From the UHGV virus genome UHGV-0224761: a DNA stretch of 41,003 nt, one strand, 5' to 3'. Positions within the stretch are counted from its first letter, which is position 1. Each line of letters begins with the position of its first letter. This stretch comes from a virus. The position numbers and the translations under genes were made by a program. The notes under the pieces are model-generated. The model was not told where the DNA came from and made no database searches. It saw only the letters and a program-made list of their open reading frames with translations. Of this stretch, positions 10,716 to 40,631 are shown piece after piece.

Positions 10716-11138
10716 ATGGCTGAAACACAGATGAGCATGTTTGGTGACAGCGAACAGCTGCACGCGCTGATTGACCGTCTGGATGATATTCCTGATGATG
10801 AGCTGAAAAAGAACTGGCCCGGCACGCTGCGGGACCTGGTTGATGTGATCAGTGCTGAACTGCACCGTCAGGGGATTGAACCTGCTCAGGCGGGAATGCT
10901 TGCCCGTAAGGTTGCAGCCGCACAGGCCGGGTACATGGGCGGGCGTGGTTATTATCTCCCGGTCGGTGAATCCCTTTTCACCGAACTGCGCAATAATGAA
11001 ATTTTTTCCCGCTGGAGCCAGGGCGAAAAAATTGAAACCCTGCGCCGCCACTACCAGATGTCAGAGACGCAGATTTACTCCGTTATCCGCAACCAGCGTC
11101 GCCTGCATCAGGAACGCACGCAGCCACGGCTTTTCTGA
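10716..11138 (+). CDS. mor: Mor/C-family transcriptional activator
   Basis: 140 aa; acidic N-terminus and C-terminal HTH (...ETLRRHYQMSETQIYSVIRNQRR...) resemble Mu Mor/C; sits between gemA and lys. Whether it is the Mor or the C equivalent cannot be resolved. Confidence 0.7.
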   Translation: MAETQMSMFGDSEQLHALIDRLDDIPDDELKKNWPGTLRDLVDVISAELHRQGIEPAQAGMLARKVAAAQAGYMGGRGYYLPVGESLFTELRNNEIFSRWSQGEKIETLRRHYQMSETQIYSVIRNQRRLHQERTQPRLF

Positions 11139-11209
11139 TATTCCGCAAATCCTGCCCACTTTTTCCCACGGTTACGCTGACTCAGAGAACACCATGAGAC
11201 AGCGTAACA

Positions 11210-19195: not shown

Positions 19196-19372
19196 TGGTT
19201 TAAGGTATACAAACGCATTACCTTACCCTCTTCAGGCGCGTGTCGTGATTTTCTAACCTGTATTTAACGGGCTTTAAAATCTGCGTGAAGCGCCTTTCTC
19301 ATTTTCCCCCTGTCAGCACTTTCTGAAGTCCCGCAAAACCGGCCCCGAAAAACACCGGCTTATGCTGCCGGA

Positions 19373-37747: not shown

Positions 37748-37782
37748 TTGCAGGGCTTTATTCCCGCATAAGGAGGATATAC

Positions 37783-38204: not shown

Positions 38205-38498
38205 TTAGTCCGATTCACGCTTTTGTAGAATCGTTCCCAGAATGCTATACAGCTCATTAGCCTGTTGCTCCATCATTGAGACGGAGGCTATACGGTGCAA
38301 AGTGATTTCAGGAGGTGGCACACCTCCATCTTCTTGCTGTGGAGGAAAAACATAAGATTTAATAAAAAAGTTGAAGCATATGAACTCTCCCGCACTCGAA
38401 CTGTATTTGCAGGCATCTGAATAATCGGAAAAATAATCATTATAGATTTCCGCATTTTCAATCATTTTTCGATTTCTCGTCGTTACATGATTGTCCAT
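38205..38498 (-). CDS. Hypothetical protein in an AT-rich island (cargo, reverse orientation)
   Basis: 97-aa ORF on the minus strand; the surrounding 38040..38710 region is AT-rich compared with the rest of the prophage. Confidence 0.45.
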   Translation of the reverse strand: MDNHVTTRNRKMIENAEIYNDYFSDYSDACKYSSSAGEFICFNFFIKSYVFPPQQEDGGVPPPEITLHRIASVSMMEQQANELYSILGTILQKRESD

Positions 38499-38686
38499 AG
38501 CAGCCTCTTACGCTGGCAATTAACCAATTGACTTCTATAAATTAGTTGATTTGTTTGCTTTGCGGTATTCAAATGTACAATCATTCAGCACTTATGCGTT
38601 ACAGCACCGTTTAAAATTAGTGATCAAACTCATAAATTTTCGCTAATGACATTTCGTGTTATTTGTTGTATCAATTAAATAAATCA

Positions 38687-38711
38687 AATCGATCGTTTTT
38701 GTCGATCGATT
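38687..38711. promoter_or_regulatory. Perfect palindrome AATCGATCG-N7-CGATCGATT with two GATC sites upstream of com
   Basis: 9-bp inverted repeat with GATC at 38691..38694 and 38705..38708. Confidence 0.5.
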
Positions 38712-38754
38712 GAGTGATAAAGATATCAACAACAAAGCAGGAGGTTATGCGGCC

Positions 38755-38955
38755 ATGTATCGAAACATACGGTGCCGACATTGTAACAAGCTACTGGCAC
38801 GAGCCAGCTTCAGTTATCTGGAAGTTAAATGTCCGCGCTGTAAAACCCTCAATCAAATCACATCTCAGAGCGCCACAGAGCACCCCACATACACAAGGAA
38901 ATCCTGTCGTGGGGAACAGAAAGCAAGTTACATCCCGTATCATCAGCACGCCTGA
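38755..38955 (+). CDS. com: Com zinc-finger translational activator of mom
   Basis: ...[30 protein letters not shown]...EHPT parallels the Mu Com Cys4 zinc finger; the track ORF begins upstream at 38710 with a non-ATG start. Confidence 0.8.
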
Positions 38956-39646
38956 ACTTATTCACTATAACGACAATATCGTCGGTTATGGCTCCCGTGA
39001 GTTACGGGTTGAGACAATAAGTTGCTGGCTGGCCCGGCTGGTCGTCGTCAATAAACATTACAGCCATCGTTTCGTAAATAATTCCTACCTTCATCTGGGC
39101 ATATTTTCAGAACGGGAGCTGGTTGGCGTAATGCAATGGGGTTATGCCCTTAATCCAAACAATGGTGCACGCGTCGTAACTGGCACGCAGAACCGCGAAT
39201 ATATGGAGCTTAACCGGTTATGGCTGCATGACTGTATGCCGAGAAACTCCGAATCAAGGGCAATCAGTTACGCGCTCAAACTAATCAGACAACTTTATCC
39301 GCAGGTGCAGTGGGTTCAGTCGTTTGCAGATGAGCGTTGTGGCTGTCTTGGTGTCGTGTACCAGGCAAGCAATTTTGATTATGTAGGCAGTCATGAAACA
39401 ACATTCTATGAACTTGATGGCGAGTGGTATCACGAGATTTGCAAGAATGCAATCAAACGAGGAGGACAGCGAGGTGAACATCTGCGGGCTAATATCGACA
39501 GAGCCAGTGTTCATAAATTCCGTCAGTTTCGTTACATCCGGTTTCTGGACAAGAGAGCCAGAAAACGCCTTAACACAAAGCTATTCAAAGTCCAGCCTTA
39601 CCCAAAACCACAAACAGTTAAAACTGGTTTGAAAGAGAGTGAATGA
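38909..39646 (+). CDS. mom: Mom-like DNA modification protein
   Basis: Start overlaps the 3' end of com and it is the last gene before the right end, as in Mu; GTG start after RBS aagga lying inside a palindrome aggaaatcct. Start is approximate (the track ORF extends upstream to 38714). Confidence 0.55.
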
Positions 39647-39689
39647 ACGCTTAAAAACTCATTCTAAAACTCAAAAGAAAAGCGCCGAT

Positions 39690-39773
39690 TTAGTATCAAA
39701 TAAGTTGCGTATCGGCGTTTTTCAGCGGTATCAAATGAAATGCAAATCGGTATCAAAAAAATCGCCGCGCTAT
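39690..39773 (+). repeat. Right end (attR) with three inverted transposase-binding repeats
   Basis: Reverse complements of TTTGATACCGA at 39748..39758, TTTGATACCGC at 39725..39735 and TTTGATACT at 39692..39700; the terminus ...CGCCGCGCTAT resembles the Mu right end. Confidence 0.6.
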
Positions 39774-39778
39774 ATAAT
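39774..39778. repeat. Right copy of the putative 5-bp target-site duplication (ATAAT)
   Basis: Pairs with GTAAT at 556..560. Confidence 0.55.
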
Positions 39779-40631
39779 ACGTCGTGTCACCACAAATCCA
39801 CGGCACATTTACAGCACTGCCACCATGACACTGCGCGTTAAACACAGTGAGGTCAGCACGAAACTGCTTCAGCATGGCTGTAAACAGCGCAGGTTGCTGT
39901 GCGTAGGTGGCGGCGCTCATGTCAAACTCTCCCTGCATCCAGCACACCGCCAGCAACACATTTTTCGGGTTCTTCTGTAATGCAGCTTTAGTGCGCGCAA
40001 TCAGGTCCTGATATAACGGTTTACCCACCCCCCAGCGCGCCGAATCCTGGCTGGCCCCCGCGTCCGCACTGAATGTCCCCTCCGCGCCCCGGGTGAATGC
40101 CGAACCACCACGACAGCATGGTACCAGCAGGATCCCCGCGTTATTCGGGATATACGGGAGCAGTTTTTTGGCAATATGTAAGCCCTGGCCGACACAGCCG
40201 TACTGCCCTTTGCTCAGGTCTGCCTTCGGATGATTCAGCGTACTCATATCCTGCACATCATGCAGACAGTGGTCAGCCGGGATGATGTCGTTATACGTAC
40301 AACTCTCTCCACCCGGAGTTACCGTGCTGCGGCGCGCCAGCTGTTTAATGCGCGGATCCGGAGCATCGTAAGAATCCGGTAACGGAAGCCCTTCACCGTA
40401 GGCCATGCCGTTGGACTGTCCGGCAAGCACAACCACGTAGAACCAGTCCGGCTCAGATGAAGGGCCGACCTGTGGATCTCCTTCAATAGCCACCGCCTGC
40501 ATCAGTGTGTACGGCGTAATGGCAACCGGTCCGCCATATGGCTGCCAGCCCTCTTTCAGTTTGTGTGTCAGCTTTTCCGCAAGGTCTGACGGCGACGCCG
40601 CCCTGACAACATCATAGTGTTTAAATGCCAT
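39779..40631 (-). pseudogene. 5' fragment of the host SGNH/sialate-O-acetylesterase-like gene cut by the prophage
   Basis: N-terminal about 285 aa ending ...VNVPWICGDTTYY; in the track ORF (39753..40631) the last six codons (IARRFF-stop) are read from prophage-end sequence; SGNH motif VVVLAGQSNGMAYGEG. Confidence 0.7.

What the first reader, a model, noticed from the sequence alone, without database searches (positions are those of the whole stretch)
38687..38955. com-mom module preceded by a Dam-site palindrome and an RBS-sequestering hairpin
A Com-like Cys4 zinc finger and a downstream overlapping mom-like ORF are present at the right end. Just upstream lies a perfect palindrome AATCGATCG-N7-CGATCGATT with two GATC sites, and the putative mom start (GTG at 38909) is preceded by an RBS embedded in the palindrome aggaaatcct. 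This fits the Mu model of methylation-sensitive transcription plus Com-dependent translational unmasking, but with a different site arrangement (two GATC sites in one palindrome rather than three dispersed sites).
Basis: partly seen in the sequence, partly recalled or inferred. Interest (0 to 1): 0.4.

Follow-up and report, generated by a model that had tools for sequence, protein, structure and literature searches.

The report
Mu-type com-mom operon with Dam/OxyR-type operator
This is the DNA-modification (com-mom) operon at the right end of a Mu-like prophage of E. coli; its translational control elements match phage Mu's and its upstream site resembles known Dam/OxyR operators, so it is an ordinary, already annotated module whose promoter differs from Mu's.

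Summary
An exact palindrome AATCGATCG-N7-CGATCGATT (38687-38711) carries two GATC sites. It is followed by com (38755-38955, Cys4 zinc ribbon) and an overlapping mom (GTG 38909-39646, 78% identical to Mu Mom). The window is a Mu-like prophage found in about 233 complete E. coli genomes, where both genes are already annotated.

The palindrome is not a new arrangement. It is homologous to Mu's GATC sites 2 and 3, which are also 13 bp apart. It has the form of the Dam-sensitive OxyR half-sites of P22 gtr and agn43 (ATCG-N7-CGAT). With the adjacent 38670-38684 it gives the joint-best OxyR consensus match in the 41 kb window (13/20, the same as Mu's site).

The real differences from Mu are these. 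GATC site 1 is missing. The C-activator site and T-run are missing, so the operator lies 27 bp closer to com. The operator therefore covers the -35 position of either candidate -10.

A perfect bipartite Com-binding motif (38868-38884) precedes it.

The same cassette drives C5 or N6 DNA methylases in other prophages. OxyR/Dam control is inferred by homology and was not tested. The promoter is unmapped.

The parts
38670..38706 (.). Putative 37-bp OxyR tetramer operator: half-site ATCAATTAAATAAAT (38670-84), linker CAAATCG, half-site ATCGTTTTTGTCGAT (38692-38706)
   Evidence: Scores 13/20 against the published consensus ATAGxTxxxAxCTAT-N7-ATAGxTxxxAxCTAT. That is the joint top of 40,967 positions in the window and equals the score of Mu's site; agn43 scores 14. 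It is in register with Mu GACGATCGAATCAAT-TAAATCG-ATCGGTAATACAGAT.
38687..38711 (.). Perfect palindrome AATCGATCG-N7-CGATCGATT with two Dam sites (GATC 38691-94 and 38704-07, 13 bp apart)
   Evidence: Only 1 of 25 columns varies across 16 cassette variants. The core CGATCG-N7-CGATCG is kept in com cassettes of Citrobacter and Salmonella prophages. In Mu the homologous right arm is aGATCG.
38712..38729 (+). Hypervariable stretch (38712-38727) with the two candidate -10 hexamers, GATAAA 38716-21 and TATCAA 38724-29. The promoter is not mapped.
   Evidence: 16 of 22 alignment columns vary among close relatives. No consensus sigma-70 promoter was found on the + strand. Groups B and C have TATACT or TGT-TATCAT 8 nt after the operator. 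For either candidate, a 17-nt spacer puts the -35 inside the palindrome.
38740..38744 (+). Shine-Dalgarno GGAGG of com
   Evidence: Read from the sequence. It lies 10 nt upstream of ATG 38755.
38755..38955 (+). com: 66-aa Cys4 zinc-ribbon translational activator
   Evidence: Pfam PF10122 E 7.5e-13. 44% identical to Mu Com, with all four Cys aligned. Same coordinates as the PGAP gene in an identical prophage.
38868..38884 (+). Bipartite Com-binding RNA motif GAGCGCC-ACA-GAGCACC
   Evidence: Exact match to the SELEX motif NGAGNNCC(N)2-3GAGNNCCNN reported in PMC6483171. It lies at the position of Mu's GAAUGCCUGCGAGCAUCC. It is conserved in groups A, B and C and recognisable in the distant locus L094. 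Within 38868-38914, 2 of 47 columns vary.
38883..38914 (+). Translation-inhibition hairpin. Outer stem CCCCAC (38883-88) / GUGGGG (38909-14) pairs the GUG start. Inner stem ACA.GG / CCUGU pairs the AAGGA Shine-Dalgarno (38895-99).
   Evidence: Minimum free energy -12.6 kcal/mol, z -2.2. The outer stem has the same arms in Mu (one C-G pair shorter) and in Citrobacter and Salmonella cassettes.
38909..39646 (+). mom: adenine-modifying (methylcarbamoyl) enzyme with a GTG start, overlapping com by 47 nt
   Evidence: Pfam PF25680 E 7.8e-78. 78% identical to Mu Mom. PDB 8bv8 E 2e-123. Mu residues Y49, R101, S114, D139 and Y149 (PMC7261163) are all invariant in the alignment.
39647..39774 (+). Right-end region of the transposable prophage. 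The prophage ends at 39774 (...CGCGCTATA).
   Evidence: Homology with three other E. coli prophage copies stops at this base, and the four flanks beyond it all differ.

Best explanation
This is the com-mom operon of a Mu-like (Sp18-type) E. coli prophage. It most likely works as in phage Mu, with a simpler promoter.

Step 1 (inferred by homology). Transcription starts from a weak promoter whose -35 region lies inside the GATC palindrome. The palindrome is one half of an OxyR-type operator (38670-38706). When its two GATC sites are unmethylated, host OxyR binds and blocks RNA polymerase. Dam methylation prevents that binding, so transcription needs a Dam-methylated template.

Step 2 (gene and start shown; expression inferred). 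Com is translated from ATG 38755.

Step 3 (sequence elements shown; action inferred from Mu). The mom start GUG and its Shine-Dalgarno are locked in the hairpin 38883-38914. Com binds the bipartite GAGNNCC motif at 38868-38884, whose last two C are the first two bases of the hairpin's 5' arm. Binding opens the hairpin and allows Mom translation.

Step 4 (inferred from 78% identity and conserved catalytic residues). Mom modifies adenines in phage DNA and protects it from restriction.

Unlike Mu, there is no recognisable site for the late activator C. GATC1 is also absent.
For: Gene identity. PGAP annotates the same genes in about 233 E. coli genomes.

Operator:
- Base-by-base homology to Mu's GATC2/3 segment and its linker.
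- The same ATCG-N7-CGAT unit with a 13-bp GATC spacing occurs in P22 gtr half-sites A and C and in agn43 GATC-II/III. PMC2909390 shows that methylation of the gtr sites abolishes OxyR binding.
- Joint-best OxyR consensus score in the window, equal to Mu's.
- The palindrome is invariant while its flank is hypervariable.
- The CGATCG-N7-CGATCG core travels with com on different phage backbones: Mu-like prophages carrying mom or a C5 methylase, and a phage with an integrase gene nearby carrying an N6 methylase. That points to a host factor rather than a phage-specific regulator.
- In four independent spacers, consensus position 6 is always T and position 10 is A in three.
- Natural deletion variants in group C have lost the GATC repeats but keep the -10 element, as expected for a negative element.

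Translation: perfect SELEX-type Com motif. The hairpin folds at -12.6 kcal/mol, z -2.2. The stem arms are the same as in Mu and in other cassettes. Distant com-mom loci L094 and L111 pair their Shine-Dalgarno using unrelated sequences next to the same GCCACCGAGC motif.
Against: No binding, methylation or expression data exist for this element. OxyR control is an inference from sequence similarity.

The promoter is not located. No sigma-70 consensus match was found on the + strand. The stretch where a -10 is expected is the most variable part of the cassette.

The upstream half-site matches only 6 of 10 consensus positions and has no GATC.

Position 10 of the palindromic half-site is G, not the consensus A.

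The outer hairpin stem never varies, so it gives no covariation support.

The whole-region fold (81 nt) is not significantly more stable than shuffles (z -1.3).

It is unexplained how a toxic mom would be kept silent in a dam+ lysogen without a C-type activator requirement.
Confidence: 0.72

Rival explanations
1. The palindrome is the binding site of a phage-encoded regulator, such as the prophage's C/Mor-family late activator (10716-11138) or Com itself acting on DNA. The GATC sites would be incidental or only modulatory.
For: The palindrome sits where an activator site would be expected, over the -35 of either candidate -10. Mu's Pmom depends on C, which binds a dyad at a comparable position. 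The window's C homologue is only 41% identical to Mu C, so it could recognise a different sequence. PGAP labels Com a 'DNA-binding transcriptional regulator'.
Against: The palindrome occurs nowhere else in the window. The prophage's two clear late promoters, before the lysis gene and the head-scaffold gene (Plys and PI), share a different box, CCGCAAAnCCnGCCC, 30 nt before a TAyGCT -10. That box is absent upstream of com. The same CGATCG-N7-CGATCG core accompanies com on a different phage backbone, one with an integrase gene nearby. It is nearly identical to the agn43 operator, a locus with no com. Com's selected RNA motif GAGNNCC is not in the palindrome.
Confidence: 0.12
2. The palindrome acts at the RNA level. 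Either it is a 5'-UTR hairpin of the com-mom transcript (if the promoter lies upstream, as in agn43), or it is an intrinsic terminator for leftward (minus-strand) transcription that insulates the region from antisense read-through.
For: The scan calls a minus-strand terminator-like site: 9-bp stem, 7-nt loop, tail TGATTTATTT. As RNA the hairpin folds at -12.6 (+ strand) and -11.2 (- strand) kcal/mol, z -2.8 and -3.7. In agn43 the homologous GATC sites lie downstream of the annotated 5' end of the leader sRNA IsrC.
Against: No minus-strand gene lies to the right of the palindrome inside the prophage; mom is the last gene and the prophage ends at 39774. In groups B and C the inverted symmetry shrinks to the 6-bp CGATCG arms while the GATC spacing is kept exactly. 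That fits a protein site better than a stem. The + strand hairpin has no U-run after it. No credible promoter was found upstream of 38687, and close relatives diverge completely upstream of 38660.
Confidence: 0.08
3. The palindrome is an inherited remnant of the Mu-type regulatory region with no present function in this prophage.
For: GATC1 and the C site of the Mu arrangement have been lost. The putative -10 region is degenerate and variable.
Against: Only 1 of 25 columns varies in 16 variants, while the adjacent 16 bp are saturated with changes. The core and its exact 13-bp spacing persist in cassettes whose com is only 57-73% identical.
Confidence: 0.05

Closest known systems
Bacteriophage Mu com-mom operon (Pmom, Dam/OxyR, C, Com and the translation-inhibition structure)
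   Same: Position at the right end of a transposable prophage. com overlaps mom (47 nt here, 50 nt in Mu). mom starts with GTG inside the 3' arm of a CCCAC/GUGGG stem. The Com motif lies immediately 5' of that stem. Mom is 78% identical with the catalytic residues kept. The upstream ATCG-N7-(C/a)GAT unit with two GATC 13 bp apart and the adjacent AAATCG linker are homologous.
   Different: No GATC1. No TTAT-N6-ATAA C site and no T6 run. The operator ends 48 nt before the com ATG instead of 75 nt. The hairpin loop is 20 nt with an inner helix, against 11 nt in Mu. Com is only 44% identical and 4 aa longer. Mom carries 12 extra C-terminal residues. The prophage's C protein is 41% identical to Mu C, and its own late-promoter box is absent here.
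agn43 (flu) Dam/OxyR phase-variation operator of E. coli
   Same: The core ATCGATCGTTTATATCGATCGATAAG is almost the same sequence as the window's ATCGATCGTTTTTGTCGATCGATTGAG, and nearly identical to the Citrobacter-type com cassettes. GATC-II and GATC-III are 13 bp apart. The upstream half-site sits 22 bp away with similar consensus quality. A weak sub-threshold Rfam hit to the agn43 leader sRNA (IS102/IsrC) covers 38670-38791.
   Different: agn43 has a third GATC in the upstream half-site. By the annotated IsrC 5' end, its operator lies downstream of the transcription start. It controls an autotransporter, with no Com or translational layer. Phase variation is demonstrated there and untested here.
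P22 gtr operon OxyR half-sites A and C (PMC2909390)
   Same: Each half-site is G-ATCG-N7-CGAT-C with two GATC 13 bp apart (ATCGGTAACAACGAT and ATCGCTTGTATCGAT). The C half-site overlaps the promoter, with GATC4 at -33. Methylation abolishes OxyR binding.
   Different: gtr has three half-sites spaced 32 bp apart, giving alternative activating and repressing positions. The window has one GATC-bearing half-site plus one GATC-free half-site 22 bp away.
com-methyltransferase cassettes of other prophages (FluMu, Pnme1 and B3 in the literature, PMC3299994; Escherichia phage Chuche)
   Same: A Com zinc ribbon overlaps and presumably licenses translation of a DNA-modification gene. In enterobacterial examples the same GATC operator, Com motif and CCCCAC/GUGGGG hairpin are present.
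   Different: The cargo is an N6 or C5 DNA methylase instead of Mom. The Haemophilus-type cassettes lack GATC clusters upstream of com.

Membership tests
Com (Pfam PF10122 Zn_ribbon_Com) | N-terminal CxxC...CPRC four-cysteine zinc ribbon in a protein of about 60 aa | tested here: met
   48.2 bits against a cutoff of 22.9, E 7.5e-13. C7, C10, C26 and C29 align with Mu Com.
Com (Pfam PF10122 Zn_ribbon_Com) | Gene lies immediately upstream of, and overlaps, a DNA-modification gene whose mRNA carries the Com target motif CC(N)2-3GAG / GAGNNCC next to a start-site hairpin | tested here: met
   47-nt overlap with mom. GAGCGCC-ACA-GAGCACC lies at 38868-84, directly 5' of and overlapping the hairpin.
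Com (Pfam PF10122 Zn_ribbon_Com) | Binds the mRNA and activates translation | not testable with these tools
   Needs EMSA, toeprinting or reporter fusions.
Mom (Pfam PF25680; GNAT-fold adenine methylcarbamoylase) | Full-length match to the family profile and to the solved Mu Mom structure | tested here: met
   261 bits, E 7.8e-78, profile positions 1-202 of 202. PDB 8bv8 E 2.4e-123. 78% identity to Mu Mom.
Mom (Pfam PF25680; GNAT-fold adenine methylcarbamoylase) | Functionally critical residues of Mu Mom (Y49, R101, S114, D139, Y149; PMC7261163) | tested here: met
   The corresponding window residues Y51, R103, S116, D141 and Y151 are all in the invariant-column list.
Mom (Pfam PF25680; GNAT-fold adenine methylcarbamoylase) | Modified adenine in phage DNA | not testable with these tools
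   Needs nucleoside LC-MS or restriction-protection assays on induced phage DNA.
Mu Pmom regulatory scheme | OxyR operator containing Dam sites upstream of com | tested here: met
   Met at sequence level only. The site is homologous to Mu's, scores 13/20 like Mu, and is the joint top of the window. Binding was not tested.
Mu Pmom regulatory scheme | Binding site for the late activator C (TTAT-N6-ATAA dyad over the -35) and a T6 run in a 19-bp spacer | tested here: not met
   No such dyad lies between the palindrome and com. The only window match is at 37758, about 1 kb upstream. The prophage's own late-promoter box is also absent there. The segment is 27 bp shorter than in Mu.
Mu Pmom regulatory scheme | Translation-inhibition hairpin that pairs the GUG start, relieved by Com | tested here: met
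   Met at the structure-prediction level: -12.6 kcal/mol, z -2.2, with Mu's stem arms plus one C-G pair.
Dam/OxyR phase-variation switches (agn43, gtr) | OxyR site with GATC sites in the ATCG-N7-CGAT half-site | tested here: met
   Direct comparison with the agn43 and P22 gtr sequences.
Dam/OxyR phase-variation switches (agn43, gtr) | Operator overlaps the promoter or transcription start so that OxyR and RNA polymerase compete | tested here: inconclusive
   Both candidate -10 hexamers place the -35 inside the palindrome, but the start site is not mapped.
Dam/OxyR phase-variation switches (agn43, gtr) | Heritable ON/OFF expression states with differential GATC methylation | not testable with these tools
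   Needs single-cell or colony reporters and methylation-sensitive digests.

The most novel reading that the evidence does not exclude
In this prophage lineage the com cassette (about 38660-38917) has lost the C-activator requirement. It would then be a self-contained, portable switch gated only by Dam/OxyR competition at the promoter and by Com at translation. Like agn43 and gtr, it could phase-vary in lysogens. Subpopulations of host cells would then carry Mom-modified DNA, or C5/N6-methylated DNA where the cargo has been swapped. That would be heritable heterogeneity in restriction and defence evasion, driven by a prophage.
Probability: 0.1. Interest if true: 0.6.

Novelty: new member of a known kind. 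Interest (0 to 1): 0.25.

Why it matters
Taken at face value this is a routine annotation: a Mu-family anti-restriction operon already named in hundreds of E. coli genomes.

Three points have modest value. First, the GATC palindrome is the same ATCG-N7-CGAT unit found in the Dam/OxyR-controlled regions of Mu mom, agn43 and gtr. Second, in this lineage it abuts the core promoter with no recognisable C site. Third, the roughly 260-bp unit (operator, promoter, com, Com site, hairpin, start codon) is exchanged as a block between different DNA-modification genes.

If the cassette proved to be C-independent and phase-variable, it would link prophage-encoded DNA hypermodification to epigenetic bet-hedging. 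Nothing here shows that.

Tried and rejected
1. A longer Mom isoform. In the window the mom frame is open from 38714, with an in-frame ATG at 38747 just after the com Shine-Dalgarno. Rejected: in most close relatives that frame opens only 73 nt inside com, and in Mu only 10 codons before the GTG. The ATG is also only 2 nt from the GGAGG.

2. The palindrome as the common late-activator site. Rejected: no second copy in the window. The prophage's Plys and PI promoters share a different box.

3. A Mu-type C dyad. The only TTAT-N6-ATAA is at 37758, 12 nt before an unrelated ORF, with 0.34 expected by chance. Judged coincidental.

4. Pinning the promoter. The consensus scan found nothing on the + strand. 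Positional homology to groups B and C gives GATAAA (38716-21). The more conserved (T/C)ATCA(A/T) gives 38724-29. An agn43-like upstream promoter has no convincing hexamers and would lie in sequence that is not shared with close relatives. Left open.

5. Covariation for the hairpin. The outer stem is invariant in all enterobacterial cassettes, so no compensatory changes can be counted. Only helix-level replacement in the distant loci L094 and L111 is available.

6. Rfam. No family reached threshold. There was only a 21-bit match to IS102/IsrC.

16 oriented matches had com 45-48 nt downstream. Several AT-spacer matches without com were not resolved.

8. The original Mu OxyR papers (PMC401183, PMC147061) are not held in the library. 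Footprint limits for Mu come from my own knowledge and from secondary sources.

Full report
WHAT IS THERE. The window is a Mu-like transposable prophage of E. coli. The stretch 38500-39760 is 100% identical to prophages in two complete E. coli chromosomes. It is 90% or more identical in 235 records from 233 of 5,426 complete genomes. Repressor, transposase A and B, Mor and C homologues, and head and tail genes run from about 900 to 37400. Comparison of four copies puts the right end at 39774, beyond which all flanks differ.

- The palindrome AATCGATCG-TTTTTGT-CGATCGATT is at 38687-38711.
- GATC lies at 38691 and 38704.
- com runs 38755-38955, with Pfam Zn_ribbon_Com at E 7.5e-13.
- mom runs from GTG 38909 to 39646. 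Its evidence: Pfam Mom at E 7.8e-78, 78% identity to Mu Mom, and PDB 8bv8 at E 2e-123.
- Mu's mom also starts at a GTG, at the aligned codon.
- The five residues shown to be critical in Mu Mom (PMC7261163) are all conserved.
- PGAP annotates the same two genes with the same starts.
- The literature already notes that the Sp18 prophage carries Com and Mom homologues (PMC3299994).

THE PALINDROME. The exact core CGATCG-N7-CGATCG occurs once in the window. Looser matches are no more frequent than in shuffles. Its significance comes from comparison.

First, Mu's own regulatory region reads GACGATCGAATCAAT-TAAATCG-ATCGGTAATACAGAT-CGATTATGCCCCAATAA. The window reads ATCAATTAAATAAAT-CAAATCG-ATCGTTTTTGTCGAT-CGATTGAGTG. 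So Mu's GATC sites 2 and 3 lie in the homologous, slightly imperfect palindrome with the same 13-bp spacing.

Second, the unit G-ATCG-N7-CGAT-C is the form of the Dam-sensitive OxyR half-sites of the P22 gtr operon. Those are ATCGGTAACAACGAT and ATCGCTTGTATCGAT, with GATC pairs at -110/-97 and -46/-33. Methylation of these sites abolishes OxyR binding (PMC2909390). The same unit forms the agn43 operator, ATCGTTTATATCGAT, whose core is almost the same sequence as the window's.

Third, I scored the published tetramer consensus ATAGxTxxxAxCTAT-N7-ATAGxTxxxAxCTAT at every position of the window. The site 38670-38706 scores 13/20, a score reached by 3 of 40,967 positions. Mu's site scores 13 and agn43's scores 14. 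If ATCG/CGAT is accepted in place of ATAG/CTAT, this site is the unique best.

Fourth, I collected about 100 com loci from genomes and viral contigs. The CGATCG-N7-CGATCG core, always with a 13-bp GATC spacing and an A/T-rich spacer, precedes com in three diverged enterobacterial groups.
- Group A is the window type.
- Group B is Citrobacter-type Mu-like prophages, whose com is about 72% identical.
- Group C is Salmonella and E. coli phages of the Chuche type, which have an integrase gene nearby. Their com is about 60% identical.
In all three groups the operator ends 48-49 nt before the com ATG. In the four independent spacers, consensus position 6 is always T and position 10 is A in three.

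Fifth, among 16 distinct group-A variants only 1 of 25 palindrome columns varies. In the next stretch (38712-38727), 16 of 22 columns vary.

Sixth, com loci from Haemophilus, Acinetobacter, Marinomonas, Desulfovibrio and other genera show no such GATC cluster.

The only partner that always travels with the palindrome is com itself, and agn43 has the palindrome without com. A host protein is therefore the most economical ligand. By homology that protein is OxyR, with Dam as its antagonist. This is an inference. No binding or expression data exist for this element.

WHAT DIFFERS FROM MU. In Mu, 75 nt separate the operator from the com ATG. That segment contains the C-activator dyad TTATGCCCCAATAA, a T6 run and the -10 TAAGAT. 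C dependence and OxyR/Dam control in Mu are summarised in PMC4461284 and PMC3378877. Here the distance is 48 nt.
- No TTAT-N6-ATAA lies between the palindrome and com.
- The prophage's C protein is only 41% identical to Mu C.
- The prophage's two clear late promoters (Plys at 11143, PI at 19331) share the box CCGCAAAnCCnGCCC exactly 30 nt before a TAyGCT -10. That box is absent upstream of com.

The promoter itself could not be located. The consensus scan finds nothing on the + strand. Groups B and C have good -10 elements (TATACT; TGT-TATCAT) 8 nt after the operator. The window has GATAAA (38716-21) at roughly that place and TATCAA (38724-29) a little further on. The latter position is TATCAT in two relatives. 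For either choice, the -35 falls inside the palindrome. An occupied operator would therefore occlude RNA polymerase directly. That resembles the promoter-overlapping gtr site more than Mu, where the operator lies further upstream. It remains open whether the C homologue is needed, and how a toxic mom is kept silent in a dam+ lysogen.

THE TRANSLATIONAL LAYER. It is the tip of a 32-nt hairpin.
- The outer stem is CCCCAC (38883-88) / GUGGGG (38909-14), which pairs the GUG start codon.
- The inner stem is ACA.GG / CCUGU, which pairs the AAGGA Shine-Dalgarno.
- The fold is -12.6 kcal/mol with z -2.2.

The outer stem is Mu's translation-inhibition structure (CCCAC/GUGGG) with one extra pair. It is invariant in groups A, B, C and the Mu type, so it offers no covariation. 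Two distant com-mom loci, whose Mom is 52% identical, pair their Shine-Dalgarno with unrelated sequences: GAGCGUC/GACGCUC in L094 and CUUCC/GGAGG in L111. In both, the pairing lies directly after the same GCCACCGAGC motif. This supports conservation of the structural principle.

Immediately 5' of the hairpin, 38868-38884 reads GAGCGCC-ACA-GAGCACC. This is an exact instance of the bipartite motif NGAGNNCC(N)2-3GAGNNCCNN selected by Com in vitro (PMC6483171). It is a cleaner match than Mu's own GAAUGCC-UGC-GAGCAUCC. Its last two C are the first two bases of the hairpin's 5' arm. That gives a simple picture of how Com binding would open the stem. In group A, only 2 of 47 columns vary across the Com site and hairpin.

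A PORTABLE CASSETTE. Close relatives share homology with the window only from 38660 rightwards. In locus L058, com is 98% identical to the window's up to and including GTGGGGAAC. After that point the sequence switches to a C5 cytosine methylase. Group B carries a C5 methylase and group C an N6/N4 methylase behind the same elements. So about 38660-38917 (operator, promoter, com, Com site, hairpin and start codon) behaves as an exchangeable control unit for DNA-modification genes. Com-methylase pairs are already known from FluMu, Pnme1 and B3 (PMC3299994). The shared GATC operator in the enterobacterial cassettes is the part I did not find described.

RIVALS. There are three.
- A phage-encoded regulator binding the palindrome. 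This is disfavoured by its absence from the other late promoters and by its presence on a different phage backbone and at agn43.
- An RNA-level role. The scan flags a minus-strand terminator-like site, and the hairpin is stable on both strands. But there is no minus-strand gene to terminate. In groups B and C the symmetry shrinks to the 6-bp CGATCG arms while the spacing stays exact.
- A functionless relic. This is contradicted by the conservation pattern.

VERDICT. The module is a new member of a well-known kind, the Mu com-mom operon. Its operator type is already known from Mu, agn43 and gtr. It has a shortened promoter region that apparently lacks the C site. Interest is low to modest.

Noticed in passing
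window 38712-38727: A 16-bp stretch between the invariant palindrome and the conserved CAACAACAAAGCAGGAGG is saturated with differences among otherwise 95% or more identical prophages. At least five alleles exist, e.g. GAGTGATAAAGATAT, GCATGAGAAAGGCAT, AGGCGAGAAAGATAT. This is where the -10 should be. The cause (tuning of a toxic operon's promoter, or a recombination joint) is unknown.
   Followed up: partly
L058 1501-2707 (IMG/VR UViG_2671180275_000009), compared with window 38755-38920: A com gene 98% identical to the window's is fused, right after the shared GTGGGGAAC start, to a C5 cytosine DNA methylase instead of mom. Citrobacter-type cassettes (L010) do the same, and Chuche or Salmonella-type cassettes carry an N6/N4 methylase. 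The operator-com-hairpin unit is swapped as a block.
   Followed up: yes
L012, L088, L091 (com upstream regions, about 1400-1500): Natural variants of the Salmonella/Chuche-type cassette have lost two or all three GATCGAT repeats by deletion but keep the TTGTTATCAT extended -10. The deletion brings TAGGCA to 16 nt from the -10. These may be operator-less, stronger promoters.
   Followed up: no
window 11143-11178 and 19331-19366: The prophage's lysis and head late promoters share CCGCAAAnCCnGCCC placed exactly 30 nt before a TAyGCT -10. This is a candidate recognition box for its C homologue (10716-11138, 41% identical to Mu C). It differs from Mu's ATAACCCC-type box.
   Followed up: partly
window 39753-40631 (minus strand) and 39774: The prophage's right end abuts a DUF1737 plus sialate O-acetylesterase (SASA) gene, of the kind I recall being carried by lambdoid (Stx-type) prophages. 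That ORF reads 22 nt (39753-39774) into the Mu-like end. Two Stx-converting phage records annotate a 'region of the inserted Bacteriophage Mu-like phage' matching this sequence. No matching 5-bp target duplication was seen at the presumed left end (about 650).
   Followed up: partly
window 38714-39646: The mom reading frame is open across the whole of com, with an in-frame ATG at 38747. In most close relatives and in Mu that frame is closed inside com, so this looks incidental.
   Followed up: yes
window 38670-38791: A weak, sub-threshold Rfam match (21 bits against a gathering score of 46, E 0.32) to IS102, which I take to be the same RNA as IsrC, the small RNA annotated over the agn43 leader. 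It is consistent with the sequence similarity between the com operator and the agn43 operator.
   Followed up: partly
L153, L156, L218 and L166, L219, L233 (viral contigs): The motif CGATCG-N7(A/T-rich)-CGATCGAT, with a third GATC close by, also occurs in phage contigs with no com downstream. These may be other Dam/OxyR-type switches on phage accessory genes. The downstream ORFs were small and not identified.
   Followed up: partly
window 38205-38498 (minus strand) and 38490-38519: A 97-aa ORF with no Pfam match lies divergent to com, with a promoter-like site TTGCCA-18-GACAAT. O157-type relatives carry a different, larger minus-strand gene at the same place. This is a variable 'moron' slot between the tail-fibre region and com.
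   Followed up: no
window 37758-37771: TTATTCCCGCATAA is the only TTAT-N6-ATAA dyad in the window and resembles Mu's C site TTATGCCCCAATAA. It lies 12 nt before the DUF826 gene. It is probably chance (0.34 expected).
   Followed up: no
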